Below the pieces are notes generated by a model, which saw only the letters and a program-made list of their open reading frames with translations, was not told the origin of the DNA and searched no databases. The translations under genes and the position numbers were made by a program. Positions 34,401 to 51,401 of a DNA stretch of 64,000 nt are shown in pieces. Within the stretch, counting starts at the first letter, position 1; every line of letters starts with the position of its first letter. The stretch comes from a virus (taxonomy: Duplodnaviria; Heunggongvirae; Uroviricota; Caudoviricetes): the IMG/VR virus record IMGVR_UViG_3300049489_000540. The stretch is one strand, 5' to 3'.

Positions 34401-34410
34401 GGACCGCACC

Positions 34411-35142: not shown

Positions 35143-35586
35143 ATGAGTACCATTACGGAAACCATCAACGAAATCAGCCAAGCCGCCAAGCCGCGCCAGG
35201 AAATGCGCGTCATCAAGTCGATCCAGCCAGGGCAGATGATCCGCCAAGGCGACATCTATCTCGTCTGCATCAGCGGCATGACGGACATCAAGGTGTTCGA
35301 CAACATCAAGGTCACCGTCGCTGAATACACCAAGCCCGTCAAGACCAACAAGAAGCATCACCAGCTTGTGCCTGGCTCCACCATGGGCAGCCGCCACATG
35401 GTCGATTCCAAGGTCATGATGTCGCTCAACCCCACCAACAAGAGCAGCCTCGTCGGTCCCATCTTACGCTCGGTCGAAGCGTTCGAAGTGACCCACCCCG
35501 AACACGCTCACTTCCGCATGCCCGCTGGTGAATACCTCGTCTGCTACCAGTTGAACGACAAGACGAAGGAACGGGTCAAGGACTAA
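35143..35586 (+). CDS. hypothetical protein (GC-rich)
   Basis: 147-aa ORF, ~55% GC. Confidence 0.55.
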   Translation: MSTITETINEISQAAKPRQEMRVIKSIQPGQMIRQGDIYLVCISGMTDIKVFDNIKVTVAEYTKPVKTNKKHHQLVPGSTMGSRHMVDSKVMMSLNPTNKSSLVGPILRSVEAFEVTHPEHAHFRMPAGEYLVCYQLNDKTKERVKD

Positions 35587-35625: not shown

Positions 35626-36540
35626 ATGATCCAGAAGCTGACCGTTGAGCAAATCAACTTGTTCCCCCATTATGTTGAAAAGTGGACCAAGCACGGCTAC
35701 GACACTTCACCACTTGATCCCGTAGCCGTGAAGTCAGCTATCGAAAAGCTGTACACATGCGGCGGCTTGAAGCCACCCGAAAAGATTGTGTTGTGTCGCG
35801 GTCCAATCGAAGCGATCCTCACCGTCAACATGTACTTCTTCAAGAAGGAAAATCCGAAGGCGACGAAGAAGGAAATCATCGCTTTCGCCAAGAAAAACAG
35901 CGTATTCACATCATGTGGCTATGGAAGCTTCGACGCTAGCTGGGTCAGCTTCTATGATTTCTTCCAGAACGAAACCGATATCGGCAATCTGGATATCATC
36001 AATGGTATCAAGGAAACCACGCTTGCGTGTGGCTGGTATTGGGCATATTCTGATATCTGCTTCGTCAGCGAAAAGCCGTACATTCTCAAGGTCAATGATG
36101 TGAATATGCTGCATTGCGAAGATGGTCCAGCCCTGGCATATCACGACGGCACCGAATTGTATTTTTACAACGGTGTTATGATGGACAAGGAAACCATCTG
36201 CAATCACGCTTCGATCACGCCCGAGTCGATCAACAACACCGACAACGAAGAACAGAAGCGCATCAAGATCGAAATCTACGGCGTCAACAAGTACCTCGAA
36301 GATATCAAGGCTGATGTGATCGACATGGATATGGTCAAGATCAACAGCTACGACAAGGACTCCGACGCCATTCCTCGCGCACTGATCAAGGACAAGGACG
36401 GCAACCACTACCTCGTCGGCACGGACGGATCCACGGAACGCACGTACTACATGAACGTGCCGAACACCGTCAAGACTTGTGCCGCAGCCCACAACGCTAT
36501 CGCACCGCTTAAAGAGAGCAACTGCATAGCCTCGTCGTAG
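35626..36540 (+). CDS. hypothetical protein (GC-rich)
   Basis: 304-aa ORF. Confidence 0.55.
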   Translation: MIQKLTVEQINLFPHYVEKWTKHGYDTSPLDPVAVKSAIEKLYTCGGLKPPEKIVLCRGPIEAILTVNMYFFKKENPKATKKEIIAFAKKNSVFTSCGYGSFDASWVSFYDFFQNETDIGNLDIINGIKETTLACGWYWAYSDICFVSEKPYILKVNDVNMLHCEDGPALAYHDGTELYFYNGVMMDKETICNHASITPESINNTDNEEQKRIKIEIYGVNKYLEDIKADVIDMDMVKINSYDKDSDAIPRALIKDKDGNHYLVGTDGSTERTYYMNVPNTVKTCAAAHNAIAPLKESNCIASS

Positions 36541-36547
36541 TGGTCAG

Positions 36548-36817
36548 ATGAAACGCAAAAAATGCTTTCAGAACCGTCTCTGTGATGCTAGTGTCATGGA
36601 GACGGTTTATACAAAACAACTTGATAGCTGTTATGCGAAAAGGCATGATGCTGGATATATTGCTTGGATCCCAGCGAGAGATAATATTTTACACAATGTT
36701 GGAACAAATCTATGGGAAAATATCGCAGAACATATACGCAATAAAGTTTCAGCACATATACTAAAGGATATATACACAAAGTCACAGCTTGAAGCAGCTT
36801 ACGGTAACTTATTATGA
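36548..36817 (+). CDS. family-2 mini-protein (divergent body, conserved C-terminal helix)
   Basis: ends ...TKSQLEAAYGNLL; ATGA overlap with next gene. Confidence 0.6.
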   Translation: MKRKKCFQNRLCDASVMETVYTKQLDSCYAKRHDAGYIAWIPARDNILHNVGTNLWENIAEHIRNKVSAHILKDIYTKSQLEAAYGNLL

Positions 36818-37062
36818 TGATAGTGAGCGATAATGTTTGGTGTAAAATAGCACACGATATTTCGCTTCGTCTTGCTGATATTTTATCAAAAAGGGATATT
36901 GAACATTCTGCTCAATACGATGTTATTAATAATGTCAGGACATTGGTTCATAACAATGTTATAGATAATGTTAAAGACCATGTTAGTACATATGCCAGTT
37001 GTTACACAAAACCAACCAGATCACAGCTTGAAGCAGCTTACAAGGTCTTGGGGCAGATATGA
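36814..37062 (+). CDS. family-2 mini-protein
   Basis: V-x-x-N/H tetrapeptide repeats; ends TRSQLEAAYKVLGQI; ATGA overlap. Confidence 0.65.
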   Translation: MMIVSDNVWCKIAHDISLRLADILSKRDIEHSAQYDVINNVRTLVHNNVIDNVKDHVSTYASCYTKPTRSQLEAAYKVLGQI

Positions 37063-37313
37063 AACTTGTTAGCGTTTATGAAGATGTTAGTGCGAATGTT
37101 TACCAGAATGTCATGACCGCTGTCTGGGATAATATCAGGACTAATGTCAAGGATAATGTCTGGAATACTGTCAGAAATAATGTCTGGAATAATATCTGGA
37201 ATAATATCTGGAATAATACCAAGATTAATGTTGAGGATAATGTCAGGAATACTATCAGAAATGATGTCGTTGCTGATTCGCAGCTTGAAGCAGCTTACGG
37301 TAACTTGTTGTAG
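37059..37313 (+). CDS. family-2 mini-protein
   Basis: VWDNIRTNVKDNVWNTVRNNVWNNIWNNIWNN tetrapeptide repeats; ends DSQLEAAYGNLL. Confidence 0.65.
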   Translation: MKLVSVYEDVSANVYQNVMTAVWDNIRTNVKDNVWNTVRNNVWNNIWNNIWNNTKINVEDNVRNTIRNDVVADSQLEAAYGNLL

Positions 37314-37627: not shown

Positions 37628-37850
37628 CAGCGGAAGTCATCAAGAATTGCTGTCCTTGTGGATCAGTTAAAAGATATACTTTAGGAGCAGCCACCTTTGG
37701 AATAAGGTCAGTTGTGCATGACCAATCAGGCTGGATTGGTTTTGTTTGCGTTGTTGGTTCTCCTTGCAACATTAATGCCGAAAGGATAACCACGACACAT
37801 GCAGCGACAACGCCAATGGCAATCGCAGCGTCTTTTGTAATTAATGTCAT
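37575..37850 (-). CDS. single-TM protein, paralog of 44091..44369
   Basis: N-terminal TM AIAIGVVAACVVVILSAL; shared C-terminal motif GQQFLM...MPYTPKA versus GQQFMV...LPYTVPA. Confidence 0.5.
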   Translation of the reverse strand: MTLITKDAAIAIGVVAACVVVILSALMLQGEPTTQTKPIQPDWSCTTDLIPKVAAPKVYLLTDPQGQQFLMTSAGGIMPYTPKASVEKPKE

Positions 37851-37988
37851 GGTGATTCCTTGGTTATTTGAATACTATCGAAGTGTTTCTTAGCGGTGTA
37901 TACATGTATTCCGATAACGATACAACTTACCAGGCACACGACAAAAAGCGCATATGCTGATATAAGTACCATTTTCTCATACGGACTC

Positions 37989-38267
37989 TTAAGATGCATC
38001 ATTCTCTTTTTCCTTTAAAAGTTTTGCATACAACATATCTGCATGTCGTATGGCTTGAACCATATTCTTACCATAATCAGCAACAGCAATCTTGGGTCCG
38101 TAGATATGACATATCCAGCCATCTATATAGCGGCGACACCGTACCTTTTTTTTAATTTGCTGGGGGTTTATCGGTCTTGACATGTGCTTCAAATCACGGA
38201 GCATGTTGGAAACAGCCCATTCCATGTCTCGCATTTTGTGAAGCCTTCGACAGTACGCTTGATGCAT
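37989..38267 (-). CDS. hypothetical basic protein
   Basis: 92-aa ORF. Confidence 0.4.
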   Translation of the reverse strand: MHQAYCRRLHKMRDMEWAVSNMLRDLKHMSRPINPQQIKKKVRCRRYIDGWICHIYGPKIAVADYGKNMVQAIRHADMLYAKLLKEKENDAS

Positions 38268-38335
38268 AGTTGTAGTATCCTATCGTCATTTTATAGCTCT
38301 GCAACACTTTAATTATCTGCTATTAATAGCAACCA

Positions 38336-38626
38336 TTAATCACCGAAAATCATTTTCTCAACATACTTTTTTGCTTCTTCAATATCAACAAATCGTATTT
38401 CATCATCATTAAATTTTAAAACACTTTCCAATCGAGGAATGAAATACCCATCTATCGTTTCAATACTGGCAATGTATGCACGACCAATCGCATAGTGCCA
38501 GGTTCCAGCTTGTGTGAGTTCTCGAAGCCACTCTGGCTTATATCGGCTCAATTCTGTTTGAGCAACGGCAAGAGCGTCTTGCAGTTCTGTATTTTGCTTC
38601 TCTAGAGAATCGGTATATTCGCTCAT
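38336..38626 (-). CDS. family-1 protein
   Basis: N-term MSEYTDSLEKQNTELQDALAVAQTELSRYKPEW. Confidence 0.65.
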   Translation of the reverse strand: MSEYTDSLEKQNTELQDALAVAQTELSRYKPEWLRELTQAGTWHYAIGRAYIASIETIDGYFIPRLESVLKFNDDEIRFVDIEEAKKYVEKMIFGD

Positions 38627-38958
38627 GCGTATCGTTTAAGTATTTCTTCTTCAAAGGCTTTCATAGCTTCTGCTGGGGTATCATATACTTTATTATGAGA
38701 TATGTTATCTATGGGTTCATCATCGCGTTTTTTGAAAAAAAGATTATATTTCCTATCTTTTTCTCGTAACCAAACCGACCCAAACGAATAATATCTTTTT
38801 CCATATAGCACATTTGTTGTGACGAATTCATAGTTTTCATCTTTGCATCGTACAGTTTTTATCCACTTGGGTTTCCATTTCGACAAGTCATGTTCAGTCT
38901 CGGCAAGCCGCTGTTCCAGTTCAAGAACATGCTGCTCTAGTGACTCGGTGTAAACCAT
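38623..38958 (-). CDS. family-1 protein
   Basis: N-term MVYTESLEQHVLELEQRLAETEHDLSKWKPKW; ATGA overlap. Confidence 0.65.
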   Translation of the reverse strand: MVYTESLEQHVLELEQRLAETEHDLSKWKPKWIKTVRCKDENYEFVTTNVLYGKRYYSFGSVWLREKDRKYNLFFKKRDDEPIDNISHNKVYDTPAEAMKAFEEEILKRYA

Positions 38959-38997
38959 AAGCAGCTATCCTATACCCTATATGCAGTTTTTCAACAA

Positions 38998-39354
38998 CTA
39001 TTTTTTAGATGTATACGGTACAACAGTACGACCATGGGCATAATTCCTCAACATATCAATGTCATAAATGGACCCACAAGGATTACAACGGTCTTTAACT
39101 GACTTATATAGTCTGCTACTGCTATATGGCGTTGGCGACGATAATGGAACCACATAAACAACGTCCAGCATCGGAACAACCACCAAATCAGCAGTAATAT
39201 TCAAAGCAGCTTCTCTAGAAACATTACCATCACAAATAACAACGAATCGTGTATTGTTTTGTAAATCTTCAACTGTCTTTTGTTGAATAGCAAGCTGCTC
39301 TTGCAGTTCCTCGATGTGTAATTCCAATTGGCGGGTATAGGATTTATGCTGCAT
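38998..39354 (-). CDS. family-1 protein
   Basis: MQHKSYTRQLELHIEELQEQLAIQQKTVEDL from an internal Met; 11-nt overlap with upstream gene. Confidence 0.55.
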   Translation of the reverse strand: MQHKSYTRQLELHIEELQEQLAIQQKTVEDLQNNTRFVVICDGNVSREAALNITADLVVVPMLDVVYVVPLSSPTPYSSSRLYKSVKDRCNPCGSIYDIDMLRNYAHGRTVVPYTSKK

Positions 39355-39667
39355 ATTTAGGTCCAAATAGCACTTCGACATGCGCTTTCGCCTCTTCAAT
39401 CGAAGTAAAAAATTTCTGCACAGGAGGACTCATATCAACATGATATTTACTGTCATCGGTTATTGATTGCCGTATGGTAGCTAAACAGATACCGTTGATC
39501 ATATATTTTGTGTACCAACTGAAAATTGCTCTTGGTGGCTGTGCAGCATCTTCCCATCGCGGAACCAATCGTTGTAGTGCTTCAACTTTAGCTTCCGATA
39601 CTGCAAGCTGCTCTTGCAGTTCTTCAATGTGCTGTTCTAGGTCCAACACATAACTCACAAAACACAT
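39344..39667 (-). CDS. family-1 protein
   Basis: N-term MCFVSYVLDLEQHIEELQEQLAVSEAKVEALQRL. Confidence 0.65.
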   Translation of the reverse strand: MCFVSYVLDLEQHIEELQEQLAVSEAKVEALQRLVPRWEDAAQPPRAIFSWYTKYMINGICLATIRQSITDDSKYHVDMSPPVQKFFTSIEEAKAHVEVLFGPKYAA

Positions 39668-40062
39668 CCTTTGAATAACACGATTTCTTTAAATGTTTCT
39701 TGCATGTACACGGTCCCATCTTCATCTTTTGCCACGCGAGTAAACCCTTGAACACGGATACACGCATGTGCAATCATGAATCCTTGTTGTATGTTTTCTG
39801 CATGCGTCACAAACATATACCATGGGAGATAGTTTGGCAATTCTGGCATATCAACTGTAAATTTACGCTTAATAAGATCATGGGCTACGGATCTTGTTAT
39901 CTCTTCACGCAATCCTGTTATTCCATGTTCTTTGGTGTAATTAATATGAAGTTCGTAGTAATACCGTGGTCTATGCCACAGCCAATCATTGGTTGCTTGC
40001 TCTTTAGCAAGCAACTCTTGTAGCTGCTCAATATGCTCTTCAAGTTGCTTCGAGTAGCTCAT
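39655..40062 (-). CDS. family-1 protein
   Basis: N-term MSYSKQLEEHIEQLQELLAKEQATNDWLW. Confidence 0.65.
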   Translation of the reverse strand: MSYSKQLEEHIEQLQELLAKEQATNDWLWHRPRYYYELHINYTKEHGITGLREEITRSVAHDLIKRKFTVDMPELPNYLPWYMFVTHAENIQQGFMIAHACIRVQGFTRVAKDEDGTVYMQETFKEIVLFKGCVL

Positions 40063-40424
40063 CGGTGTAGCTCATACATAATTTTTATATTTGTTGTTTT
40101 TGCACTCATTCCGTCAAACTCGTCATGGTTATGGTAAGGAAGAGCAACCAATGTGAGCATGAATGTTCTTATATGCTTTTTTGGAAACATAGCCATGAGA
40201 AGGAAATCTATTCCATTCTCTTTAATACTTTTCAGCATGCGAGTCATATGACTTCGAACGATGAATCGCCGTTGAGATTCTTCATCCGTTTCATGAAGCA
40301 TAACATAGTAAAAGTGTAATCTTTGCCTTTCTTTCCAGGCAATGAATGCCCGAGCCTCACTAAGCAACTCTATAAGCTGCTCGTTCTGCTTTTCCAGAGA
40401 TTCAGTGTAGGCTTTAGAGTTCAC
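40059..40424 (-). CDS. family-1 protein
   Basis: N-term MNSKAYTESLEKQNEQLIELLSEARAFIAWKE; ATGA overlap. Confidence 0.65.
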   Translation of the reverse strand: MNSKAYTESLEKQNEQLIELLSEARAFIAWKERQRLHFYYVMLHETDEESQRRFIVRSHMTRMLKSIKENGIDFLLMAMFPKKHIRTFMLTLVALPYHNHDEFDGMSAKTTNIKIMYELHR

Positions 40425-40698
40425 TTGTCTCTTTATTGGTATTACGATTAGCTATACCATAACTCGCCTCTTCGCTCCGTCGATACCGCGCCAGGTACGC
40501 ACCATATAGCCGACCTCGTTCATCTGGACTGTGTGTTGATAGTTTCCGACCCTTAATACGATCCGACAATCGACACCATTCTTCGTAGGTCATCGGTGGC
40601 AATCGTTTCAACAACGGATCATTCTTACGGTATTTAACTACCTTGACCGATCCAAGTCCCCTGGTAGCTCCTACAAAGTTGTGTGAGTGTATGCCCAT
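40414..40698 (-). CDS. hypothetical basic protein
   Basis: 94-aa ORF, Arg/Lys-rich. Confidence 0.4.
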   Translation of the reverse strand: MGIHSHNFVGATRGLGSVKVVKYRKNDPLLKRLPPMTYEEWCRLSDRIKGRKLSTHSPDERGRLYGAYLARYRRSEEASYGIANRNTNKETSEL

Positions 40699-40709
40699 AA
40701 GTTATATCT

Positions 40710-41072
40710 TTATATGTATTTTTCTTTGTACTCTTTATGAACCATATCCATAGCCTTGAAAATTTTCTCCATATGTTGTTTCACTTCGTCAAATGTTCTG
40801 AAATCACTAAATTTAAACTCCCATTTATCATCCGAAAATACTTTATATAAGTCTTCCGAGTAAGAAATACAAAATTTACTACTGGCATGTTGTCGAGTCA
40901 CAGAACAGAGAATTATTGTGGACATATATAATTTTGCTTCAAATACATTGTGTCGTGGTTTTGGATTTATGAACCACTCTGGTGTCCACCTTTCGGCTAC
41001 TGCCAGGCGCTCCGTCAAATCCTCATTCCGCCTTTCTAATTCGGCTACATACTGTTGCATGGGGGTCGGCAT
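40710..41072 (-). CDS. family-1 protein
   Basis: N-term MPTPMQQYVAELERRNEDLTERLAVAERWTPEW. Confidence 0.6.
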   Translation of the reverse strand: MPTPMQQYVAELERRNEDLTERLAVAERWTPEWFINPKPRHNVFEAKLYMSTIILCSVTRQHASSKFCISYSEDLYKVFSDDKWEFKFSDFRTFDEVKQHMEKIFKAMDMVHKEYKEKYI

Positions 41073-41075
41073 ATG

Positions 41076-41348
41076 TTATTTTCCAGAACGCTGCCGCCTC
41101 GGCTTCACGGTACCCCAGCGTGTCTTGTCCCGATCCGGCAGCGTCTTTCGTCCCTTGATCGACACAAACTGCGCCTTGTCAGGAAAGTCAGCGACTCCAA
41201 GATACAAGTGCCGTATGGTATTCAACATAGGATACTTGTCCACATCAAGGTCCATATAATGCAGATACTCACATACCCGCATAAAGGCTATGAATTCCTT
41301 GGTGTCTTTACACTGAATATGCATGGTGAGCCACATGCTACATAACAC
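41076..41348 (-). CDS. hypothetical protein
   Basis: 90-aa ORF. Confidence 0.4.
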   Translation of the reverse strand: MLCSMWLTMHIQCKDTKEFIAFMRVCEYLHYMDLDVDKYPMLNTIRHLYLGVADFPDKAQFVSIKGRKTLPDRDKTRWGTVKPRRQRSGK

Positions 41349-41384
41349 ATGCCATTTTTCAAGACATATTCTAAAAACAGCAGC

Positions 41385-41412
41385 TTGACTATTTCCTAAA
41401 GCCTATTAGTAT
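41385..41412 (+). promoter_or_regulatory. sigma70-like promoter TTGACT-N16-TAGTAT upstream of the + family-2 array; near-duplicate of 43786..43813
   Basis: cttgactatttcctaaagcctattagtatcaacc versus cttgactattttttaaaacctactagtatcacc. Confidence 0.55.
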
Positions 41413-41460
41413 CAACCATGTGTCATTTTATAGGTACTGTGAATTACTCAAAGGATTGAC

Positions 41461-41742
41461 ATGAACATTGTTAAATACAATGCTTGTAGAGACATTTGCC
41501 TTTATCATGTCATGGATAGTGTTAAGAATGATGTTGGCATGCTTATGCATAACGAAATAGAACACAACATTACGAAGTTCGTTACCAGCCTCGTTTTCGA
41601 TAATATTGAAACTCACGTTGAGTCTTCCGTAGACGATAATGTATGGGAACCTGTATGGGATAGTATGTTCAGTAATGTTGTATGTAAAATATTTACGGAT
41701 TCACAGCTTGAAGCGGCATTTGCAGCACTGGAGCGGATATGA
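41461..41742 (+). CDS. family-2 mini-protein (array 2, gene 1)
   Basis: SD aaagga; V-x-x-x-V-x-x-N octad/tetrad repeats; ends DSQLEAAFAALERI; ATGA overlap. Confidence 0.65.
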   Translation: MNIVKYNACRDICLYHVMDSVKNDVGMLMHNEIEHNITKFVTSLVFDNIETHVESSVDDNVWEPVWDSMFSNVVCKIFTDSQLEAAFAALERI

Positions 41743-42005
41743 AATCCATTATTAACGATGTTTGCGATACTCTGGATAAGTTAGATAATGTTGAAGGTAT
41801 CAGAATATATATTCAGGAGCATGCTTCGGTGCGTGCATATAATCCAGTCTGGGACATTGTTCAGTTAACTGTCTGGGATAATGTCTGGGAGAATGTGTTA
41901 AACCATCTTGATGCTGAAATTACAAGCACATTTTGTCATATGAAATATAAAAGATTCACCAAATCACAGCTTCAAGCCGCTTACCAGGCACTGGAGCAGC
42001 TATGA
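41739..42005 (+). CDS. family-2 mini-protein
   Basis: ends KSQLQAAYQALEQL; ATGA overlap. Confidence 0.65.
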   Translation: MKSIINDVCDTLDKLDNVEGIRIYIQEHASVRAYNPVWDIVQLTVWDNVWENVLNHLDAEITSTFCHMKYKRFTKSQLQAAYQALEQL

Positions 42006-42253
42006 AGGATAATGTGAGGGTCCGTATATGGGTTGATGTTCGTAGCAACATCATAGATAATGTTTGGAGTATTCTCAAACGGATCATTAGGGAACATACT
42101 GGTGTTAACGTCAGAAATAGTGTATGGGATAATATTCCAGAGCGCACTACGGATGACATGGAGGGTCTTACGAAGCCACATATCATGCATCATCTATGTA
42201 AGTCAACGGACCAACAGCTTGAAGCTGCTTACTTAGCACTGGAGCGGATATGA
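42002..42253 (+). CDS. family-2 mini-protein
   Basis: ends DQQLEAAYLALERI; ATGA overlap. Confidence 0.65.
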   Translation: MKDNVRVRIWVDVRSNIIDNVWSILKRIIREHTGVNVRNSVWDNIPERTTDDMEGLTKPHIMHHLCKSTDQQLEAAYLALERI

Positions 42254-42513
42254 ACCAGAGCCATCATAGAGATATTGTGATACGCCATGAAATAAAGGAT
42301 TATGTTGGTAGTATTGTCAGAAGTAAAGTTATAAGTCGTTGTGTAGACAAAGTAAAAGCTAATACCTTGGGTAATGTGTATGCTGATGCTACATCACATA
42401 TTCGTGATAATGTTAGGAGTTTTATTGATACAAATACTATAGCTAATGTTGGAAAAAGATCATGTACAGATTCACAGCTTGAAGCAGCTTACCAGTCACT
42501 GGAGCAGATATGA
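42250..42513 (+). CDS. family-2 mini-protein
   Basis: ends DSQLEAAYQSLEQI; ATGA overlap. Confidence 0.65.
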   Translation: MNQSHHRDIVIRHEIKDYVGSIVRSKVISRCVDKVKANTLGNVYADATSHIRDNVRSFIDTNTIANVGKRSCTDSQLEAAYQSLEQI

Positions 42514-42767
42514 TCGAGGATTATATAAAAGATTCTGTCTTGGAAACTATTCGGTCAACAACCAGTAACCGTTTAGATTCTATTATCATGGATAAGGCTT
42601 ATGACATTATGGATATTGTCAGAGAGAATGTTTGGGATCATCTTGATGGCAGTATATGGTCTAATGTCGATATGAATGTTAGGAATCAAATATGTCATGT
42701 TGCCCGTTATCAGTTGTTCACTCATTCACAGCTTGAAGCAGCTTATACCGTATTGGAGCAGATATGA
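42510..42767 (+). CDS. family-2 mini-protein
   Basis: ends HSQLEAAYTVLEQI; ATGA overlap. Confidence 0.65.
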   Translation: MIEDYIKDSVLETIRSTTSNRLDSIIMDKAYDIMDIVRENVWDHLDGSIWSNVDMNVRNQICHVARYQLFTHSQLEAAYTVLEQI

Positions 42768-43015
42768 GTAATGCAAAAAATGAAGAAATTTTATGGTGTA
42801 AACTCTGGAATAAGATCAAACAACGAAGCTGGAGTGTTGTCGCAAATAGTAATAGGGTTCACAATGTTCATGCTCATATCTGGACCAATGTTGATAATAG
42901 GATTGATTCGTGGCTCATGAGACATATACGGTCGGAAGTTAAGGAGACTATTCGTGATCGTAGATATGCTGAATTGCAACTTGAGGCAGCTTACCAGGCA
43001 CTGGAGCAGATATGA
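42764..43015 (+). CDS. family-2 mini-protein
   Basis: ends ELQLEAAYQALEQI; ATGA overlap. Confidence 0.65.
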   Translation: MSNAKNEEILWCKLWNKIKQRSWSVVANSNRVHNVHAHIWTNVDNRIDSWLMRHIRSEVKETIRDRRYAELQLEAAYQALEQI

Positions 43016-43263
43016 AACGTATATATATCCAAGTCAACGAAAAGGTTTGGGATGCGGTTAAGAAAGCAACAGATAGGCATATAAAACAGACATTTAAATA
43101 TGGTGTAGATCCCGTCAGCAGGCATGTTGATGATGTTGTCTACGATAATGTTTGGAATAATGTCTTGATGCATATTCGTATACGAGTAAACCATTCCAAC
43201 ATACGCAGATTATATACTGATTCGCAGCTTGAAGCCGCTTATGAGTCGCTGGAGGGATTATGA
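43012..43263 (+). CDS. family-2 mini-protein
   Basis: ends DSQLEAAYESLEGL; ATGA overlap. Confidence 0.65.
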   Translation: MKRIYIQVNEKVWDAVKKATDRHIKQTFKYGVDPVSRHVDDVVYDNVWNNVLMHIRIRVNHSNIRRLYTDSQLEAAYESLEGL

Positions 43264-43505
43264 ACCGATGTGAAAATACAGCCATCAATGATGTTTGGGA
43301 TAATATCTTATACAAAGCGCGGGAAGCCGTTAGATTCAGCATCGATAATGAATTATTTGAATTTGTTGAACTTCATATCGATATGAGAGTCCACAGTAGT
43401 GTGTGGAGTAACATCGGTGCCCCGACTTTTAACATGAATTTTAAACATATAATATGCACAGATTCGCAGCTTGAAGCCGCTTACCAGGCACTGGAGCAGT
43501 TATGA
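43260..43505 (+). CDS. family-2 mini-protein
   Basis: ends DSQLEAAYQALEQL; ATGA overlap. Confidence 0.65.
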   Translation: MNRCENTAINDVWDNILYKAREAVRFSIDNELFEFVELHIDMRVHSSVWSNIGAPTFNMNFKHIICTDSQLEAAYQALEQL

Positions 43506-43789
43506 TACTGGATGATATTTTCGCGGCTACTACGAATACTTCTGAGGGTACAATTAGACATGGTGTTGCGTCCATTGCCAAGACGAGAATCAAAGATAAT
43601 GTCGATGAGAATGATTATTGGAGCGTGTGGAACAGTGTGTTGGTTAGTAGTAGGAGTAATGTTATGGATAATGTCAATGAACATATCGCTAATAATACTT
43701 TGCGCAAATTCAAATACTTTTTCAGAGATGCGTCAATTACTGATTCGCAGCTTGAGGCTGCATATGCTGCTTTAAAAACTACAACTTGA
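43502..43789 (+). CDS. family-2 mini-protein (last of array; modified C-terminus)
   Basis: ends DSQLEAAYAALKTTT; stop overlaps the duplicated promoter. Confidence 0.6.
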   Translation: MILDDIFAATTNTSEGTIRHGVASIAKTRIKDNVDENDYWSVWNSVLVSSRSNVMDNVNEHIANNTLRKFKYFFRDASITDSQLEAAYAALKTTT

Positions 43790-43813
43790 CTATTTTTTAA
43801 AACCTACTAGTAT
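43786..43813 (+). promoter_or_regulatory. sigma70-like promoter TTGACT-N16-TAGTAT (duplicate of 41385..41412)
   Basis: -10 ends 10 nt before the ATG at 43824, so a near-leaderless transcript. Confidence 0.5.
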
Positions 43814-43823
43814 CACCAGTGTA

Positions 43824-43985
43824 TGACGCTTATCATTAGCACTATCATCGCCTTTATTCTCGTTCGATTCGTTATCTATCTGTTTAGCGATGATGAACAA
43901 ACATCATGCCCGACATGCGACGATGCTCGCTTTCAGAGCAACGATGACAAATGCCCTGTATGCCGCAAGCCTCGCCACCGATAAT
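43824..43985 (+). CDS. small membrane protein with C-terminal zinc ribbon, not in ORF track
   Basis: 53 aa MTLIISTIIAFILVRFVIYLFSDDEQTSCPTCDDARFQSNDDKCPVCRKPRHR. Confidence 0.4.
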
Positions 43986-44090
43986 GCTAAGGAATCTTAT
44001 GATTGGTTTCGTGCTTATTTCAGCATGCTTTATTTTTCTAATCGTCGCTATTCTCTTTATCCTATTTAAATCTGATAGGCAATAACGGGA

Positions 44091-44369
44091 TCAAAATCCC
44101 TTGTGCGGCTCGATCCCAGCGGGCACGGTATATGGCAGCACAACCACGCCCTGCGCCGTTCGCACGACCATGAATTGCTGCCCATAAGCATCAGCAATAA
44201 CCGTGACGAGGAAGTTGAATCCTACCTTATCATCTGAAATGATTTTGAATGCTGATGGGGCTACTTCAACGGGAGCTTCTGGTTTAGATGGGCTAAAAAT
44301 CATATAAATCCAAAAGATAACCACCGACACTATCGCAATCGCTATCAAACAATCAGCGAGGAACCTCAT
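44091..44369 (-). CDS. single-TM protein, paralog of 37575..37850
   Basis: N-terminal TM LIAIAIVSVVIFWIYMIF; C-term GQQFMVVRTAQGVVVLPYTVPAG. Confidence 0.5.
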   Translation of the reverse strand: MRFLADCLIAIAIVSVVIFWIYMIFSPSKPEAPVEVAPSAFKIISDDKVGFNFLVTVIADAYGQQFMVVRTAQGVVVLPYTVPAGIEPHKGF

Positions 44370-44419
44370 AGTTTATTTCTCCGTGCATATTATAGTTGTA
44401 TATGTATAAAGTCAATGGT

Positions 44420-44674
44420 CTACGGTGACTCTTCCATAACTCTGTAAGCTGCTTGAAGTTGTGATTCTGTAAATGATGCGTATTCGAAATGAGCAATAGT
44501 AATAGCTCTAATGTTCCATCCAACATTATTCCAAACATTAATTCCAGTATTATCATCTATATGATCTCCGACTAAAATCCAATCATCCTCACCGACATGA
44601 GTTCTGACAGCACCGTAGCTTTTAACTCTGATACTTATCCCAACATCAGGATCTACATTATGTAGGATTTTCAT
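44420..44674 (-). CDS. family-2 mini-protein (minus array, last gene)
   Basis: ends ESQLQAAYRVMEESP. Confidence 0.6.
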   Translation of the reverse strand: MKILHNVDPDVGISIRVKSYGAVRTHVGEDDWILVGDHIDDNTGINVWNNVGWNIRAITIAHFEYASFTESQLQAAYRVMEESP

Positions 44675-44922
44675 ATCCGCTCAGTCGCTTCATAAGATGC
44701 TCGAAGCTGTGAATCAGTGAACGATGTATATCCGACAGTATCATGAACATTATTCCAGACATTGCGTTTGATATTAATCCATATATTATCATGAATATTA
44801 GCTCTGATATAAGCTCCGACATAAGTTAATGCAATAGTTTCAGCACCACGCCCGATAATACCATGTGCATTGCTCCATATATCAGCCTTGACAGTTTCCA
44901 AGACACTATTTTTAACTCTCAT
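44671..44922 (-). CDS. family-2 mini-protein
   Basis: ends DSQLRASYEATERI; ATGA overlap. Confidence 0.65.
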   Translation of the reverse strand: MRVKNSVLETVKADIWSNAHGIIGRGAETIALTYVGAYIRANIHDNIWINIKRNVWNNVHDTVGYTSFTDSQLRASYEATERI

Positions 44923-45158
44923 ATCCGCTCCAATGCTTCAAATGCCGCTTCAAGTTGTGATTCGACATTCTTTTTACTAATGAATGTAGACGAAACCACA
45001 TGTCCGATATTGCGTCTGACATGATCTATGACATTAGCACTGACATTATTAAATATATTATTCGTGACAATGTGCATGATGTCAGCACCAACATGATTCT
45101 CGGCATTATCAAAGCCATTTTGTAAGATCCGGTTTTTGACAAGATTCCTGACATTCAT
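44919..45158 (-). CDS. family-2 mini-protein
   Basis: ends VESQLEAAFEALERI; ATGA overlap. Confidence 0.65.
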   Translation of the reverse strand: MNVRNLVKNRILQNGFDNAENHVGADIMHIVTNNIFNNVSANVIDHVRRNIGHVVSSTFISKKNVESQLEAAFEALERI

Positions 45159-45394
45159 ATCTGCTCCAATGCTGCATAAGCACCTTCAAGCTGCGAATTG
45201 GTACATGAATTTCTTTTAAACCTAGTCTTGACCGTATCTCTAACATTCATATAGAAATTGGTTCTGACATTGGCTCTGACATGAAACCAGACCTTACCTT
45301 GAAGATTATTTCTGACATTATTCTTGATATAAGACCATGTACTGTCTCTGACATCACTTCTAATATCTTTTGTAATACCTAGCATAATACTCAT
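45155..45394 (-). CDS. family-2 mini-protein
   Basis: ends TNSQLEGAYAALEQI; ATGA overlap. Confidence 0.65.
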   Translation of the reverse strand: MSIMLGITKDIRSDVRDSTWSYIKNNVRNNLQGKVWFHVRANVRTNFYMNVRDTVKTRFKRNSCTNSQLEGAYAALEQI

Positions 45395-45672
45395 ATTTTC
45401 TCCATTGCTGCATACGCTGCTTCAAGCTGCGAATACATGTGTGGTAGTCCGCGTCCGTAGTTGAATCTATTTCTGACATCCTCCCAAACACGATCACCCA
45501 CATTAGCCCATACATTGACTCTGACAGTATTTCTAACATTCATAAAAATAAGAGCAATATTACCATTATTATTTTTATCTATACAAATATCAGCTTTATA
45601 TCGGGCAAGCTTTAAGACAGTATAATCGACACTACCCCAAATATTATCCCAGACATATTCATCTGTACTCAT
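45391..45672 (-). CDS. family-2 mini-protein
   Basis: ends MYSQLEAAYAAMEKI; ATGA overlap. Confidence 0.65.
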   Translation of the reverse strand: MSTDEYVWDNIWGSVDYTVLKLARYKADICIDKNNNGNIALIFMNVRNTVRVNVWANVGDRVWEDVRNRFNYGRGLPHMYSQLEAAYAAMEKI

Positions 45673-45914
45673 ATCCGCTCCAATGCTGCATAAGCGGCTT
45701 CAAGTTGCGAATCATCATGTAGTGATTTGAATGCGAAATTATCTACAGTATCATAATAAACATGACTACCGACATTAGCCCATACGGTATCTCTGACAGT
45801 ATTTCTGATATTAATATAAACATCATTAACATATTCACACTTATCAGCTTTAGATCGAGCAACACCAAAGACATTATCTCTGACATCTTTCCAGCAATTA
45901 TGTCCAAACATCAT
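45669..45914 (-). CDS. family-2 mini-protein
   Basis: ends DDSQLEAAYAALERI; ATGA overlap. Confidence 0.65.
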   Translation of the reverse strand: MMFGHNCWKDVRDNVFGVARSKADKCEYVNDVYINIRNTVRDTVWANVGSHVYYDTVDNFAFKSLHDDSQLEAAYAALERI

Positions 45915-46162
45915 AGCTGCTCCAGTGCTTCGTAAGCTGCTTCAAGCTGCTGGTTTGTATATACTTTACGAATAGTATAACTTTTAACATACATTCTGGC
46001 ATTACTCCTGACATTATCGGAGACATTGGTACTGACAAATGCTAAAATATAATCCACAGCATCGGCTCTGACGCCAATCTCAACATTACTCGCAGAATTT
46101 ATCCTGGCTTGAGCCTTAATACTATCCCAGACATAAGCCAAAACAGATTTATCTACTCTCAT
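45911..46162 (-). CDS. family-2 mini-protein
   Basis: ends NQQLEAAYEALEQL; ATGA overlap. Confidence 0.65.
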   Translation of the reverse strand: MRVDKSVLAYVWDSIKAQARINSASNVEIGVRADAVDYILAFVSTNVSDNVRSNARMYVKSYTIRKVYTNQQLEAAYEALEQL

Positions 46163-46476
46163 ATTTGCTCCAGTGACTTGTAAGCGGCTTCAATCTGCGA
46201 ATCACATTCACATTCAATTTTATATTCAAGATTGGTGTCAACATGTTTAGCCACATGAGCATAAATGTGAGCCTCAACACCAAGCCAAACATTTCTTTCA
46301 ACACGCTCCCAAATATTACTCTCAACAAGGTTGAAGATAGATAGCTTGGTTTGTTTAAAAACAACAGCCTTAGCGGTATGTCCAATGTCAGACCAGACAT
46401 TGACCCGAACATCGTTACGGACAACATGCATGTTGCTACACCTATCGTTGCATTTAAGCTTACGAGTATTCTTCAA
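46159..46476 (-). CDS. family-2 mini-protein (true start may be the internal Met at 46431)
   Basis: ends CDSQIEAAYKSLEQI; NVWxxV repeats. Confidence 0.6.
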   Translation of the reverse strand: MKNTRKLKCNDRCSNMHVVRNDVRVNVWSDIGHTAKAVVFKQTKLSIFNLVESNIWERVERNVWLGVEAHIYAHVAKHVDTNLEYKIECECDSQIEAAYKSLEQI

Positions 46477-46535
46477 AAAGTCAACAATGACTTTTTAAAG
46501 TACCTATGAATGTAAACACATGCAGCTAAAGGTGT

Positions 46536-46844
46536 TTATTCCAATGCGGCATAAGCAGCTTCGAGTTGACTTTCGATATTTGGTGTGTTGAGGAAATTAC
46601 CTCTGATATTTCCGTCAACATTATTACTGACATTTTCAATAACATTATCCCAAACATTCCTATTTACATGAATCTTAACATTATCAAAAACACGAACATT
46701 GGTATTATTCTTGACATGATTCCTGGTACGATTCTTGACACTATCCCAAACCTTTGTCATGACATCGTTCCAGACAGCATTTTTGACATGAAGCCTGGTA
46801 CTGATCTTCATGACATCGTTCCAGACAGCATTTTTGACACTCAT
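46536..46844 (-). CDS. family-2 mini-protein (first gene of minus array; internal 31-nt duplication)
   Basis: ends IESQLEAAYAALE; the VKNAVWNDVM segment appears twice because of the direct repeat catgacatcgttccagacagcatttttgaca; ATGA overlap with the regulator gene. Confidence 0.6.
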   Translation of the reverse strand: MSVKNAVWNDVMKISTRLHVKNAVWNDVMTKVWDSVKNRTRNHVKNNTNVRVFDNVKIHVNRNVWDNVIENVSNNVDGNIRGNFLNTPNIESQLEAAYAALE

Positions 46845-47749
46845 ATCTGCTCACCTTCGACTTCGCGGACATAGGGAATGAGGTCGGGATGCCGCTTACG
46901 CCACCCATACACCAGCGCATGGAAACTCTGTATTTTATCTTCCTTACCAAACGACCTGGCAATATCTGAAATGGATTCACCATTGCGCATGCGCCGACCA
47001 ATATTCTCTGGTGTATATCCTTCGGGGCGAACCCAGCCATATGGCTGACGCTTCGGCATATCAATGCCACGCTTCCGTAAACGGTTCACATGTTGTATGG
47101 CACTACCGATAGAACATTTCATTGCCAGAGCGATTTCTTCGTAGGTCTTGCCTTCATGCCACAGTGCGATCAATCGCTTCTCACGACTAATGGTGCTGAT
47201 TCCTCTGGTCGCCATGCGATACCGAATACGATCAAATTTTACACCCAATGTTTCACGCATGAGAGTTGATTTGTTTGGATCATCGTCCACACACAAATAC
47301 TCCAATCGACGCTTCAATTCTTCCACGCCGATATGCAGCCGCGCACAGACTTCCTTCACAGCAGCTTCACCTTTCTCTCGCTGCCGCTCGACGAACAGAT
47401 CCTTCACATTCATGTCGAATATGCCGCGCAATTCACCAGCCAAGTATCGTGTCAGACCAGCAGGAGCAGGATCTTTCACATGCTCTCGCAATTGATCCTC
47501 AGTCATACCCAGCATCTTGCAGCATCCTTGGACTCGCTTTTCGTTTTGAAATTCCCGCTTGTCCATGAGCCTGGCTGTCTCGTCGGACAGAAAACCATAT
47601 GCTCGTTGTAATGCATGAAAGGTAGCACAGTCGATACCTAGCCGCTGGTTGCACTTGGTCTGTAACAGTCGGATGACAGCAGATGTGTCGGCTGCTCCCG
47701 TATGAGCAGCAATCTTCCGCATCCATGTATCTTTTTTGTCTTTGTTCAT
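46841..47749 (-). CDS. DNA-binding regulator with sigma-70 region-4/LuxR-type HTH (paralog of 26229..26891), first gene of the family-2 minus-array operon
   Basis: 302 aa; HTH LIALWHEGKTYEEIALAMKCSIGSAIQHVNRLRKRG; ~50% GC; stop overlaps the ATG of 46536..46844. Confidence 0.65.
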   Translation of the reverse strand: MNKDKKDTWMRKIAAHTGAADTSAVIRLLQTKCNQRLGIDCATFHALQRAYGFLSDETARLMDKREFQNEKRVQGCCKMLGMTEDQLREHVKDPAPAGLTRYLAGELRGIFDMNVKDLFVERQREKGEAAVKEVCARLHIGVEELKRRLEYLCVDDDPNKSTLMRETLGVKFDRIRYRMATRGISTISREKRLIALWHEGKTYEEIALAMKCSIGSAIQHVNRLRKRGIDMPKRQPYGWVRPEGYTPENIGRRMRNGESISDIARSFGKEDKIQSFHALVYGWRKRHPDLIPYVREVEGEQI

Positions 47750-50554: not shown

Positions 50555-50830
50555 TTATTTTTCAGTAACTATTTTATAAGCTGCTTCAAGCTGCGAATCC
50601 GTGAACAATTCATTACTAACATACCCACTGACGCAAGCCCAAACAATGGTCCCAATAATATCCCATACTCTACCTCCAATATTCCTTCGAATATTCGCAC
50701 CAACCAGATCGACAATATCGTTCTCGACACGATACATAACACAATTATACGCCATATCACCGCACTGGTTCCGCACATCACAACCAACATTAAGAACATT
50801 TACAAACACATCCGTTCGTAATTGCTTCAT
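50555..50830 (-). CDS. family-2 mini-protein
   Basis: ends FTDSQLEAAYKIVTEK. Confidence 0.6.
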   Translation of the reverse strand: MKQLRTDVFVNVLNVGCDVRNQCGDMAYNCVMYRVENDIVDLVGANIRRNIGGRVWDIIGTIVWACVSGYVSNELFTDSQLEAAYKIVTEK

Positions 50831-51102
50831 AGCTGCTCCAGTGACTCATAAGCTGCTTCAAGCTGTGAATCCGTATGTGTGTTAGCTTTGATATTATTCC
50901 AAACATGAACATAGACCCTATCCTTGACACTACGTTTGATATTGGTCAACGTATGATCCCGCATATGAGTCAAAGCATAATTCCAAACAGCAGCCTTGGA
51001 ATTACTTTTGACGGCATTCCAGCCGCTGTCCCCGACATATTTCCTGACTAATAAATGAATAGGCGCACTACAAATCATGTCTTCAATAAAGTCACTACTC
51101 AT
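50827..51102 (-). CDS. family-2 mini-protein
   Basis: ends HTDSQLEAAYESLEQL; ATGA overlap. Confidence 0.65.
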   Translation of the reverse strand: MSSDFIEDMICSAPIHLLVRKYVGDSGWNAVKSNSKAAVWNYALTHMRDHTLTNIKRSVKDRVYVHVWNNIKANTHTDSQLEAAYESLEQL

Positions 51103-51401
51103 AGCCGCTCCAATGCCATATATGCTGCTTCAAGCTGCGACTTGGTTACTCTCGCTTCCATATCTTCCACACCAATGTCCCAAATATCATCCCTGATAGC
51201 ATCAATACGCTCGGTAGCATTCCAGACGTTCTCCACAACGAGATTCCAAACAATATTCGTAACATTCTTACCAATATGACTATGGAACGTATTCTTGACT
51301 TTGCGTATAACGCCATCCTCAACGTGATCCCATATACGATCATTGACTCTATCAAGAGTACGCATGCCGTTATACATTACTGTCATCTTTAAAAAGAGCA
51401 A
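51099..51401 (-). CDS. family-2 mini-protein
   Basis: ends TKSQLEAAYMALERL; ATGA overlap. Confidence 0.65.
   Translation of the reverse strand: MLFLKMTVMYNGMRTLDRVNDRIWDHVEDGVIRKVKNTFHSHIGKNVTNIVWNLVVENVWNATERIDAIRDDIWDIGVEDMEARVTKSQLEAAYMALERL

What the first reader, a model, noticed from the sequence alone, without database searches (positions are those of the whole stretch)
41700..43790. A ~38-nt junction repeat conserved at the nucleotide level with overlapping stop/start gives the arrays a repeat-plus-cassette structure
Every family-2 gene boundary carries almost the same DNA, (t)cacagcttgaagcagcttaccaggcactggagcagatATGA. Synonymous positions are conserved, and the TGA stop overlaps the next ATG. 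The units are 242-287 bp long. So each array is a periodic conserved-repeat plus variable-insert structure in which the inserts code for protein. Conservation at the nucleotide rather than the amino-acid level suggests ongoing gene conversion or recombination between copies, or a DNA/RNA-level role for the junction. That role could be a recombination site for cassette shuffling, an RNA processing site or a translational-coupling element. Degenerate copies of the same junction sequence occur without cassettes in the non-coding zone at 53.3-54.0 kb.
Basis: seen in the sequence. Interest (0 to 1): 0.8.

Follow-up and report, generated by a model that had tools for sequence, protein, structure and literature searches.

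The report
Shared protein tail plus ribosome site
The repeated "junction" DNA is the coding sequence for a conserved C-terminal helix shared by 24 small phage repeat proteins, and its last 15 bases also serve as the ribosome-binding site and start codon of the next gene, so the repeat itself is ordinary although the gene family is undescribed.

Summary
The repeat is real. Twenty-four copies of a CAGCTTGAAGCNGCTTAY core sit at the 3' ends of 24 small genes in four tandem arrays, and 19 of them end in an ATGA stop/start overlap. It is not mainly a nucleotide-level element. In the core, pN is 0.08 and pS is 0.54, against a body pS of 0.65. The same tail, QL-x-x-[AS]-[YF]-x-x-L-[ED]-x-[LI]*, recurs in four other phage lineages with different codons.

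The 3' third does carry extra nucleotide constraint, and this is explained. The Leu-Glu codons spell GGAG 5 nt before the overlapping ATG. Ile is always ATA. Array-terminal copies lose this part. Across five lineages, 56 of 58 coupled junctions have this SD-like site, against 3 of 11 terminal copies.

No RNA structure, promoter or terminator lies at the junctions. Neighbouring copies are not homogenised. The "degenerate copies" at 53.3-54.0 kb are short AAGCNGCTT-type words inside a separate, highly self-complementary non-coding zone.

Two things are new. The gene bodies are free-standing DUF6745-type four-residue repeats. The arrays belong to a module conserved in seven contigs, made of a repeat-less 304-aa DUF6745 protein and a 147-aa partner. 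The function of the module is unknown.

The parts
41461..43789 (+). Array 2, the one in the finding. Nine tandem family genes (93, 88, 83, 87, 85, 83, 83, 81 and 95 aa), each overlapping the next by ATGA.
   Evidence: ORF list and translations; protein alignment A1.
36548..37313 (+). Array 1. Three family genes start 8 nt after the DUF6745 gene. The first and third carry the variant tail SQLEAAYGNLL.
44420..46844 (-). Array 3. Nine family genes, convergent with array 2. The first gene (46536-46844) is separated from the next by a 60-104-nt spacer. The other eight are linked by ATGA overlaps. Coupled junctions lie at s..s+41 for s = 46159, 45911, 45669, 45391, 45155, 44919 and 44671.
50555..51401 (-). 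Array 4. Three family genes, with coupled junctions at 51099-51140 and 50827-50868. The terminal copy ends ...AAYKIVTEK-TAA.
   Evidence: L017 and L018 carry orthologues.
41701..41742 (+). Junction 1 of array 2: codons S-Q-L-E-A-A-F-A-A-L-E-R-I-stop, ending in ATGA.
41964..42005 (+). Junction 2 of array 2 (SQLQAAYQALEQL*, CTATGA).
42212..42253 (+). Junction 3 of array 2 (QQLEAAYLALERI*).
42472..42513 (+). Junction 4 of array 2, closest to the consensus. The Shine-Dalgarno GGAG is at 42501-42504. The next gene's ATG is at 42510-42512 and overlaps the TGA at 42511-42513.
42726..42767 (+). Junction 5 of array 2 (SQLEAAYTVLEQI*).
42974..43015 (+). Junction 6 of array 2 (LQLEAAYQALEQI*).
43222..43263 (+). 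Junction 7 of array 2 (SQLEAAYESLEGL*).
43464..43505 (+). Junction 8 of array 2 (SQLEAAYQALEQL*).
43745..43789 (+). Terminal copy of array 2. The core SQLEAAY is kept (43745-43765), but the tail is AALKTTT*, with no GGAG and no overlapping ATG.
35626..36540 (+). A 304-aa DUF6745 (PF20530) protein that lacks the four-residue repeat run found in other DUF6745 proteins. It sits directly upstream of array 1.
   Evidence: Pfam E = 1.7e-27. Thirteen relatives at 46-67% identity. Family arrays lie next to it in L027, L031/L032 and L033, and a single family gene lies near it in L036.
35143..35586 (+). A 147-aa partner protein with an HPEHAH motif and no known family. It is always found next to the 304-aa type of DUF6745 gene.
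   Evidence: tblastn finds 42-61% identity in L027, L031, L033, L035, L036 and L037. No Pfam, PHROG or PDB match.
41385..41413 (+). Promoter-like element TTGACT-N16-TAGTAT, 48 nt upstream of array 2.
43786..43814 (+). A near-identical second copy of that promoter-like element, overlapping the stop codon of the last gene of array 2.

Best explanation
The ~42-nt junction is a composite of two ordinary constraints.

(1) The first 21-27 nt encode the start of a conserved C-terminal amphipathic helix, (T)DSQLEAAYxALEQ(I/L). Its hydrophobic residues follow a heptad pattern, L-x-x-A-x-x-x-L-x-x-[LI]. All 24 paralogues share this tail. They are small, all-helical proteins whose bodies are made of DUF6745-type four-residue repeats (xxNV).

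(2) The last ~15 nt are also the translation-initiation region of the next paralogue. The Leu-Glu codons (YTG GAG) spell the Shine-Dalgarno sequence GGAG. A 5-nt spacer follows. The final codon must end in A (ATA, CTA or TTA), so that A+TG of the TGA stop forms the next ATG.

Each array is therefore a tandemly duplicated polycistronic unit. Terminating ribosomes re-initiate on the next gene by -4 'NTGA' coupling.

Shown: the anatomy, the codon statistics, the loss of part (2) in terminal copies, and the peptide-level conservation across lineages.

Inferred: that coupling really occurs, that the tail is a docking or oligomerisation helix, and that the arrays grew by unequal recombination between junctions.
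For: - Amino-acid-level selection: core pN 0.08 against pS 0.54, compared with body pN 0.56 and pS 0.65.
- The conserved block is confined to codons -16 to -1. Both flanks are at random identity.
- Third positions of Thr, Asp, Tyr and the first Ala follow genome codon usage. Conserved body columns follow the family's own codon usage.
- The tail motif recurs as a peptide in independent lineages: THKQLEAAYELLEINYD* in L027, FTDxQLELAFSNLEQL* in L033 and SESQLNDSYxxLETI* in L031. Their codons differ, and L027 uses a -8 overlap.
- SD constraint: Glu is GAG in 17/17 coupled copies against GAA in 2/2 terminal copies. Ile is ATA 12/12, where genome usage is 28% (P = 3e-7). Leu is YTG in 18/20 copies.
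- An SD-like GGA(G) sits 5-8 nt before the overlapped ATG in 56 of 58 coupled junctions, against 3 of 11 terminal copies, over five lineages (Fisher P = 8e-7). In the window alone the counts are 17/19 against 1/5.
- -4 overlaps are common elsewhere in this genome, in 13 of 58 co-directional gene pairs. They are also the commonest coupling geometry in prokaryotes (PMC12548453).
- The AlphaFold2 model is a two-helix hairpin, and its most confident part is the tail (pLDDT 91-93).
- A promoter-like element lies only at the array borders.
Against: - Some synonymous sites in the 5' core are more fixed than protein constraint or the SD explains: Leu CTT 22/23, the second Ala GCT 18/23, and Ser only TCA/TCG. 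Core pS of 0.54 is below the 0.93 expected for random synonymous codons. Shared ancestry, concerted evolution or an unknown overlapping signal may contribute.
- Translational coupling and the role of the tail are untested.
- Two coupled junctions (36548->36814 and 44671->44420) lack a clear SD.
Confidence: 0.8

Rival explanations
1. The junction is maintained as a DNA-level recombination linker. In this view it works like a PeSL or an integron site, but in frame. Homologous exchange between junctions would shuffle, duplicate and delete whole-gene cassettes, and gene conversion would keep the linker uniform.
For: - Each genome has its own uniform nucleotide version of the tail (window, L027, L031, L033). 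This pattern fits concerted evolution or lineage-specific expansion.
- Copy number ranges from 1 (L036) to 23-24 (L033, window).
- L017 and L018 carry orthologues at 52-59% amino-acid identity in a different order and with different neighbours. L017 also has an in-frame fusion of two units exactly at a junction.
- T4-type phages recombine through short patches of homology of less than 50 bp (PMC2839356).
Against: - The longest exact run shared by two junctions has a median of 11 nt and a maximum of 26 nt. Only 20 of 276 pairs reach 20 nt.
- Junction identity is no higher within an array (0.79) than between arrays (0.82), and it is uncorrelated with body similarity (Mantel r = -0.13).
- Freely varying third positions sit between fixed ones, which conversion tracts would not leave.
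- No recombinase or integrase was identified next to the arrays.
- The only close pair of genomes (L031/L032, 99.98% identical) has identical arrays.
Confidence: 0.12
2. The 5' core contains a binding site for a sequence-specific DNA- or RNA-binding factor, the palindromic word AAGCNGCTT. The same word is used in the non-coding zone at 53.0-54.05 kb, and this would explain the fixed CTT, GAA and GCT codons.
For: - AAGCNGCTT occurs 26 times against 0.9 expected. Ten of these lie outside the family, and four of those lie in a 240-nt stretch of the non-coding zone.
- The one freely varying third position inside the core (first Ala, GCN) is exactly the unspecified centre of the palindrome.
Against: - The word is absent from the tails of L031 (CAA TTA AAT GAC TCT TAT) and L033 (CAA CTT GAA CTA GCG TTT), and it is broken in most L027 copies (CAA).
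- The companion palindrome GCTTNAAGC is not enriched outside the family: 2 sites against about 0.9 expected.
- In the non-coding zone the words are arms of inverted repeats within a strongly self-complementary element.
Confidence: 0.05
3. The junction is an RNA processing site or a structured RNA element that separates the polycistronic transcript into single-gene mRNAs.
For: None found, beyond the regular spacing. GGAG is the known target of the T4 RegB endoribonuclease (from memory, not tested here).
Against: - The 105-nt junction windows fold no better than shuffles (mean z = -0.1).
- RNAalifold finds 0 consensus pairs in 18 aligned junctions.
- There is no Rfam match in the window apart from one tRNA.
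Confidence: 0.03

Closest known systems
Translational coupling through overlapping stop/start codons (NTGA, -4 spacing), as reviewed by Brown & Wade 2025 (PMC12548453)
   Same: - Co-directional ORFs with an ATGA overlap.
- A Shine-Dalgarno sequence embedded in the upstream ORF, 5 nt before the start codon.
- L027 uses the other enriched geometry, the -8 overlap.
   Different: - Here the same initiation region is repeated up to 8 times in a row between paralogues.
- It is written into the codons of a conserved C-terminal peptide, which is why it looks like a DNA repeat.
PeSL cassettes of T4-type phages (Arbiol et al. 2010, PMC2839356; Comeau et al. 2014, PMC4122927)
   Same: - Conserved short sequences recur between small, variable, non-essential genes in a plastic genome region.
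- Each ends with an SD and a start codon.
- They could serve as patches of homology for modular shuffling.
   Different: - PeSLs are about 100 bp long and intergenic. They consist of a sigma-70-like promoter plus a stem-loop terminator, and they flank unrelated ORFans.
- The junctions here are coding, have no promoter or hairpin, and join paralogues within one transcription unit.
Repeat region of DUF6745 (PF20530) proteins
   Same: A profile of the 24 small proteins matches the long runs of four-residue repeats ([WRG][DA]xV) of hundreds of DUF6745 proteins, with E-values down to 2.5e-50.
   Different: - In those proteins the repeats are fused between an N-terminal domain and the DUF6745 domain.
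- Here the DUF6745 protein has no repeats. The repeats are encoded as separate 80-100-aa proteins with a private C-terminal tail.
Internal-protein loci of T4-type phages, which have a shared capsid-targeting sequence (recalled from memory, not checked here)
   Same: A set of variable small proteins in a plastic locus share one short constant peptide, which is presumed to be an address or docking signal.
   Different: - The T4 signal is N-terminal and is cleaved by the prohead protease.
- Here the constant part is C-terminal, the proteins are paralogous repeat proteins, and no link to the virion is known.

Membership tests
Translationally coupled overlapping gene pairs (NTGA) | Co-directional neighbouring ORFs whose stop and start codons overlap by 4 nt (NTGA). 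| tested here: met
   19 of 24 family genes end in ATGA, with the next ORF starting at that ATG.
Translationally coupled overlapping gene pairs (NTGA) | A Shine-Dalgarno sequence for the downstream gene inside the upstream ORF at a functional distance. | tested here: met
   GGAG or GGA lies 5 nt upstream of the ATG in 17 of 19 coupled junctions, against 1 of 5 terminal copies. Over five lineages the counts are 56/58 against 3/11.
Translationally coupled overlapping gene pairs (NTGA) | Translation of the downstream gene depends on translation or termination of the upstream gene. | not testable with these tools
   This needs reporter fusions or ribosome profiling.
PeSL mobile regulatory cassettes (T4-type phages) | [quoted passage not shown] | tested here: not met
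   The repeat lies entirely inside coding sequence, and no intergenic space exists.
PeSL mobile regulatory cassettes (T4-type phages) | A strong sigma-70-like promoter (-35/-10). | tested here: not met
   Promoter-like sites are not enriched: 58 found against 53.7 in shuffles. Only one weak 9/12 match coincides with a junction core (36789-36818), and none recurs from junction to junction.
PeSL mobile regulatory cassettes (T4-type phages) | A stable stem-loop acting as a terminator or attenuator. | tested here: not met
   Mean folding z = -0.1 and 0 consensus pairs. Terminator-like sites number 14 against 12 expected, and none lies at a junction.
PeSL mobile regulatory cassettes (T4-type phages) | Insertions, deletions and replacements between close relatives map to the repeats. 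| tested here: inconclusive
   L017 and L018 differ in order and content, but at 52-59% amino-acid identity they are too distant. L031 and L032 are too close (99.98%) and have identical arrays.
Integron gene cassettes (attC) | An imperfect palindromic attC site that folds as a hairpin between promoterless cassettes. | tested here: not met
   No conserved hairpin was found. The repeat is coding.
Integron gene cassettes (attC) | An adjacent IntI tyrosine recombinase. | not tested
   None was found among the roughly 25 neighbouring proteins scanned, but not every ORF of the window was scanned.
CRISPR array | Short non-coding repeats of 23-50 nt separated by non-coding spacers of about 25-70 nt. 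| tested here: not met
   The 'spacers' are 200-250 nt long and encode homologous proteins, and the repeat is read as codons.
Pfam PF20530 (DUF6745) | Presence of the ~200-aa DUF6745 domain. | tested here: not met
   The small proteins have no Pfam hit. Only their repeat bodies resemble the repeat linker of DUF6745 proteins. The neighbouring 304-aa gene is a true member.
Diversity-generating retroelement target | Variation confined to positions that are adenines in a template repeat, with a reverse transcriptase nearby. | tested here: not met
   In L033 the invariant codons are AAT GTC, which are rich in adenine and 100% identical, while all three positions of the other two codons vary. No template repeat or reverse transcriptase was looked for beyond the proteins scanned.

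The most novel reading that the evidence does not exclude
The arrays, the repeat-less 304-aa DUF6745 protein and the 147-aa HPEHAH protein may form one previously undescribed phage system. In this reading, up to two dozen variable helical repeat modules each carry the same C-terminal docking helix and plug into a common partner. That would make a protein-level 'constant tail / variable body' repertoire.

The repertoire would expand and contract (1 to 24 copies between phages) by in-frame unequal recombination at the junctions. In L033 it would diversify almost only at two of every four codons.
Probability: 0.25. Interest if true: 0.7.

Novelty: new member of a known kind. Interest (0 to 1): 0.42.

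Why it matters
As a DNA element the junction is ordinary. This case shows how a conserved C-terminal peptide combined with an embedded ribosome-binding site and an ATGA overlap can look like a 'repeat plus cassette' array.

The wider interest lies in the gene family. It has no Pfam, PHROG or literature record, yet it occupies about 6.3 kb of this phage. It recurs beside the same two partner genes in unrelated large phages, including a 386-kb contig that carries Cas genes. It also gives the first genomic-context clue for DUF6745: its characteristic repeat run can be supplied in trans by many small, fast-diverging proteins.

If these proteins prove to be a variable repertoire, for example for counter-defence or host takeover, the arrays would be a compact natural system for studying how such repertoires are built and expressed in fixed ratios.

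Tried and rejected
- Near-identical or protein-level relatives in GenBank phages: none. rIIA matches reach at most 30% identity.
- IMG/VR and the JGI metagenome contig collection: only chance hits to the DNA core or the DSQLEAAY peptide.
- L026 (a Logan assembly) is 100% identical to window 32510-46786, so it gives no population variation.
- RNA structure at the junctions: rejected. Rfam finds only one tRNA.
- Promoters or terminators at the junctions: not enriched.
- A T4 MotA-box or sigma-70 reading of CTTGAAGCAGCTTA: checked by eye and rejected, because no -10 element lies at the right spacing.
- The palindrome hypothesis (GCTTnAAGCnGCTT): AAGCNGCTT is enriched genome-wide, but it is not conserved in the tails of other lineages.
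- Gene conversion between neighbouring copies: no signal.
- The minus-strand ORF 53286-53801 in the non-coding zone translates to a low-complexity, non-protein-like sequence.
Full report
**Observation.** A near-constant stretch, TCACAGCTTGAAGCAGCTTACCAGGCACTGGAGCAGATATGA, recurs about every 250 bp. The 18-nt core occurs 19 times in the window at up to 3 mismatches, against 0.04 expected from shuffles. A looser 14-mer picks up all copies. Translating the ORFs shows 24 copies, each at the 3' end of a 79-105-aa ORF. The ORFs lie in four arrays: 36548-37313 (+, 3 genes), 41461-43789 (+, 9), 44420-46844 (-, 9) and 50555-51401 (-, 3). Nineteen copies end in ATGA, with the next ORF starting at that ATG. 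The five array-terminal copies keep only the 5' part.

**Is the conservation at the nucleotide or the amino-acid level?**
- I anchored all copies on the QLEAAY codons and compared each column with the codon usage of 113 ORFs in the window.
- Third positions are heterogeneous. Thr(-3) is ACA 5 / ACC 4 / ACG 4 / ACT 4, Tyr is TAC 11 / TAT 11, and the first Ala uses all four codons. These sites behave as free.
- In contrast, Leu is CTT in 22 of 23 copies, the second Ala is GCT in 18 of 23, and Ser is only TCA or TCG.
- In the 3' part, Ala is GCA (12/14), Leu is YTG (18/20), Glu is GAG (17/19) and Ile is ATA (12/12). All of these depart strongly from genome usage.
- Conserved columns in the gene bodies (Val, Asn) do not depart from the family's own codon usage.
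- By Nei-Gojobori counting, the SQLEAAY core has pN 0.08 and pS 0.54, against pN 0.56 and pS 0.65 in the bodies.
- The dominant signal is therefore purifying selection on the peptide. Synonymous sites are nearly as variable as in the bodies, apart from a residue of site-specific constraint.
- The conserved block is sharply bounded at codons -16 to -1. Identity is at the random level on both sides.

**The 3' third is a translation-initiation region.**
- In CTG-GAG-CAG-ATA-TGA, the Leu and Glu codons spell GGAG. Five nucleotides follow. The A of the last sense codon plus the TG of the stop then form the next ATG.
- This accounts for YTG, GAG and the exclusive use of ATA (or CTA/TTA) as the last codon.
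- The arrays provide a natural control. The five terminal copies, which have no downstream paralogue, lack this part. The two that still have Glu at this position use GAA.
- In the window, 17 of 19 coupled junctions have an SD-like site at the right distance, against 1 of 5 terminal copies. Across five phage lineages the counts are 56 of 58 against 3 of 11 (Fisher P = 8e-7).
- -4 overlaps are frequent elsewhere in this genome, in 13 of 58 co-directional pairs. They are the commonest coupling geometry in prokaryotes, and -8 is another enriched class (PMC12548453).

**No other cis-element was found at the junctions.**
- Junction windows fold no better than shuffles (mean z = -0.1).
- RNAalifold predicts no consensus pair.
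- Rfam finds only a tRNA-Leu at 62754-62839.
- Promoter-like and terminator-like sites are at the chance level. Only one weak promoter-like match coincides with a junction core, at 36789-36818.
- Array 2 is instead bracketed by two near-identical TTGACT-N16-TAGTAT elements, at 41385-41413 and 43786-43814. This fits one transcript per array.

**Relatives.**
- The family is very rare. In a 5.8-billion-protein index, the profile found only the source contig (91 kb, JGI) and two short contigs, L017 and L018.
- GenBank phages, IMG/VR and the JGI contig collection gave nothing real.
- An exhaustive profile search added a key fact. The gene bodies, but not the tails, match the long four-residue repeat runs of DUF6745 (PF20530) proteins. 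Those proteins have the architecture N-terminal domain, then repeats, then DUF6745 domain.
- The window's own DUF6745 gene (35626-36540) has no repeats and sits 8 nt upstream of array 1.
- Looking up relatives of that 304-aa protein recovered the same module in other, otherwise unrelated phage contigs:
  - L027 is a 386-kb contig with Cas1, a Cas3-like gene and Tad3. It has 5 + 3 small genes flanking DUF6745 and a 148-aa gene.
  - L033 has 11 + 12 small genes.
  - L031/L032 have 5 + 5.
  - L036 has one.
  - L035 has one tail-less repeat protein.
- The 147-aa partner (35143-35586) accompanies the 304-aa DUF6745 gene in all seven independent contigs.
- The tails are homologous as peptides (THKQLEAAYELLEINYD*, FTDxQLELAFSNLEQL*, SESQLNDSYxxLETI*), but each genome has its own nucleotide version. 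In L031 the Leu codon is TTA, not CTT. L027 uses an 8-nt overlap.
- These comparisons rule out a universal DNA or RNA motif. They identify the tail as a protein feature with a heptad pattern L-x-x-[AS]-x-x-x-L-x-x-[LI].
- AlphaFold2 models a window member as a two-helix hairpin whose most confident part is the tail. It has no PDB neighbour.

**Recombination.**
- Copy number (1 to 24), gene order (L017 and L018 against the window) and an in-frame two-unit fusion in L017 show turnover over evolutionary time.
- The genome-specific tail versions fit either lineage-specific expansion or concerted evolution.
- Within the window, however, exact shared runs between junctions are short (median 11 nt, maximum 26).
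- Junctions are no more alike within an array than between arrays, and they do not track body similarity.
- Free third positions sit between fixed ones.
- No recombinase was seen among the neighbours scanned.
- I therefore regard unequal homologous recombination at the junctions as the likely way the arrays grew and shrank. I do not regard it as the reason the sequence is conserved.
- The only near-identical genome pair available (L031/L032, 99.98%) has identical arrays.

**The zone at 53.3-54.0 kb.**
- This zone contains no cassette-less junctions. It has many AGCNGCTT-type words: about 12 sites, including 4 exact AAGCNGCTT.
- It also has a 12-nt repeat at 53408-53501 and one gapped 24-nt match on the minus strand. 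Its best alignment scores do not exceed chance hits elsewhere.
- The zone is GC-rich and has no Rfam match.
- Its long minus-strand ORF looks non-coding.
- It folds far better than shuffles on both strands (z = -5.6 and -4.9). The shared words are arms of inverted repeats in a separate element.
- AAGCNGCTT is nevertheless over-represented in the whole window, with 26 sites against 0.9 expected and 10 of them outside the family. I could not explain this.

**Unexplained remainder.**
- The fixed CTT, GAA and GCT codons in the 5' core are not explained by the peptide or the SD. The word AAGCNGCTT, whose free centre coincides with the one free third position, is a candidate explanation. It is absent from the tails of L031 and L033, so I give it low weight.
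- The function of the module is unknown. DUF6745 has a confident model (pLDDT 89) but no solved structural relative. It has no PADLOC, PDB or literature record.

**Verdict.** The junction is a conserved C-terminal coding motif fused to a Shine-Dalgarno/ATGA coupling signal, in tandemly duplicated small genes. The element is ordinary. The gene family and its DUF6745 module are undescribed and moderately interesting.

Noticed in passing
window 53000-54060: A roughly 1-kb non-coding zone between divergent genes. It has seven 14-15-nt iteron-like repeats (TCTATTTTG.AGCC, 53043-53174) and six 12-nt repeats (GATAGGCTGCTG, 53408-53501). It also has many inverted repeats. The stretch 53390-54050 folds with z = -5.6 on the plus strand and -4.9 on the minus strand, and there is no Rfam match. 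It could be a replication origin or a large structured RNA.
   Followed up: partly
window, whole (for example 8104, 11512, 15701, 21627, 23869, 39204, 53446-53681): The palindromic 9-mer AAGCNGCTT occurs 26 times against 0.9 expected. Ten sites lie outside the family-2 tails. The cause is unknown. A methylation or binding site is possible.
   Followed up: partly
window 41385-41413 and 43786-43814: Two near-identical promoter-like direct repeats (TTGACTATTT...CCTAYTAGTATC) bracket array 2 exactly. Recombination between them would delete the whole array.
   Followed up: partly
L033 7151-13932: Twenty-three family genes in which the Asn-Val codons of every xxNV tetrad are AAT GTC, with about 100% identity even at third positions. 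The two x codons vary at all three positions. This points to extreme localised diversification or very recent expansion.
   Followed up: partly
L027 (386-kb contig), locus 9368-19447: The same module of DUF6745, a 148-aa gene and small repeat genes lies 0.7 kb upstream of a Cas3-like helicase and Cas1. A Tad3 anti-defence homologue lies 6 kb upstream. This appears to be a huge phage with its own CRISPR-Cas genes.
   Followed up: no
L017 2-481: An in-frame fusion of two family units. The stop/start at the junction has been lost (…SQLGAAYKALGIHVFNKV…), giving a protein of at least 159 aa whose second half is orthologous to window 50827-51102.
   Followed up: partly
window 46841-47749 (-): A 302-aa protein with weak helix-turn-helix hits (below the Pfam thresholds; phrog_323 'transcriptional regulator', E = 9e-5). 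Its stop codon overlaps the first gene of array 3 by ATGA.
   Followed up: partly
window 51702-53006 (-): An HNH/DUF559-type endonuclease with five DUF4379 treble-clef zinc fingers and a CapR domain. It sits between array 4 and the non-coding zone.
   Followed up: no
window 61339-62839: A Ro/TROVE-like RNA-binding protein (phrog_850, DUF7788/DUF2828) is followed 45 nt later by a tRNA-Leu(UAA).
   Followed up: no
window 37575-41348 (-): A second run of about 12 small ORFs of 90-135 aa, many joined by 4-nt overlaps. It was not examined.
   Followed up: no
L028/L029 6001-7458: A fused-type DUF6745 protein (485 aa, with about 40 tetrapeptide repeats) lies in a prophage-like early region, next to RusA, YbcO, an SNF2-methylase and a PD-(D/E)XK nuclease. 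DUF6745 proteins therefore seem to be phage early genes in general.
   Followed up: no
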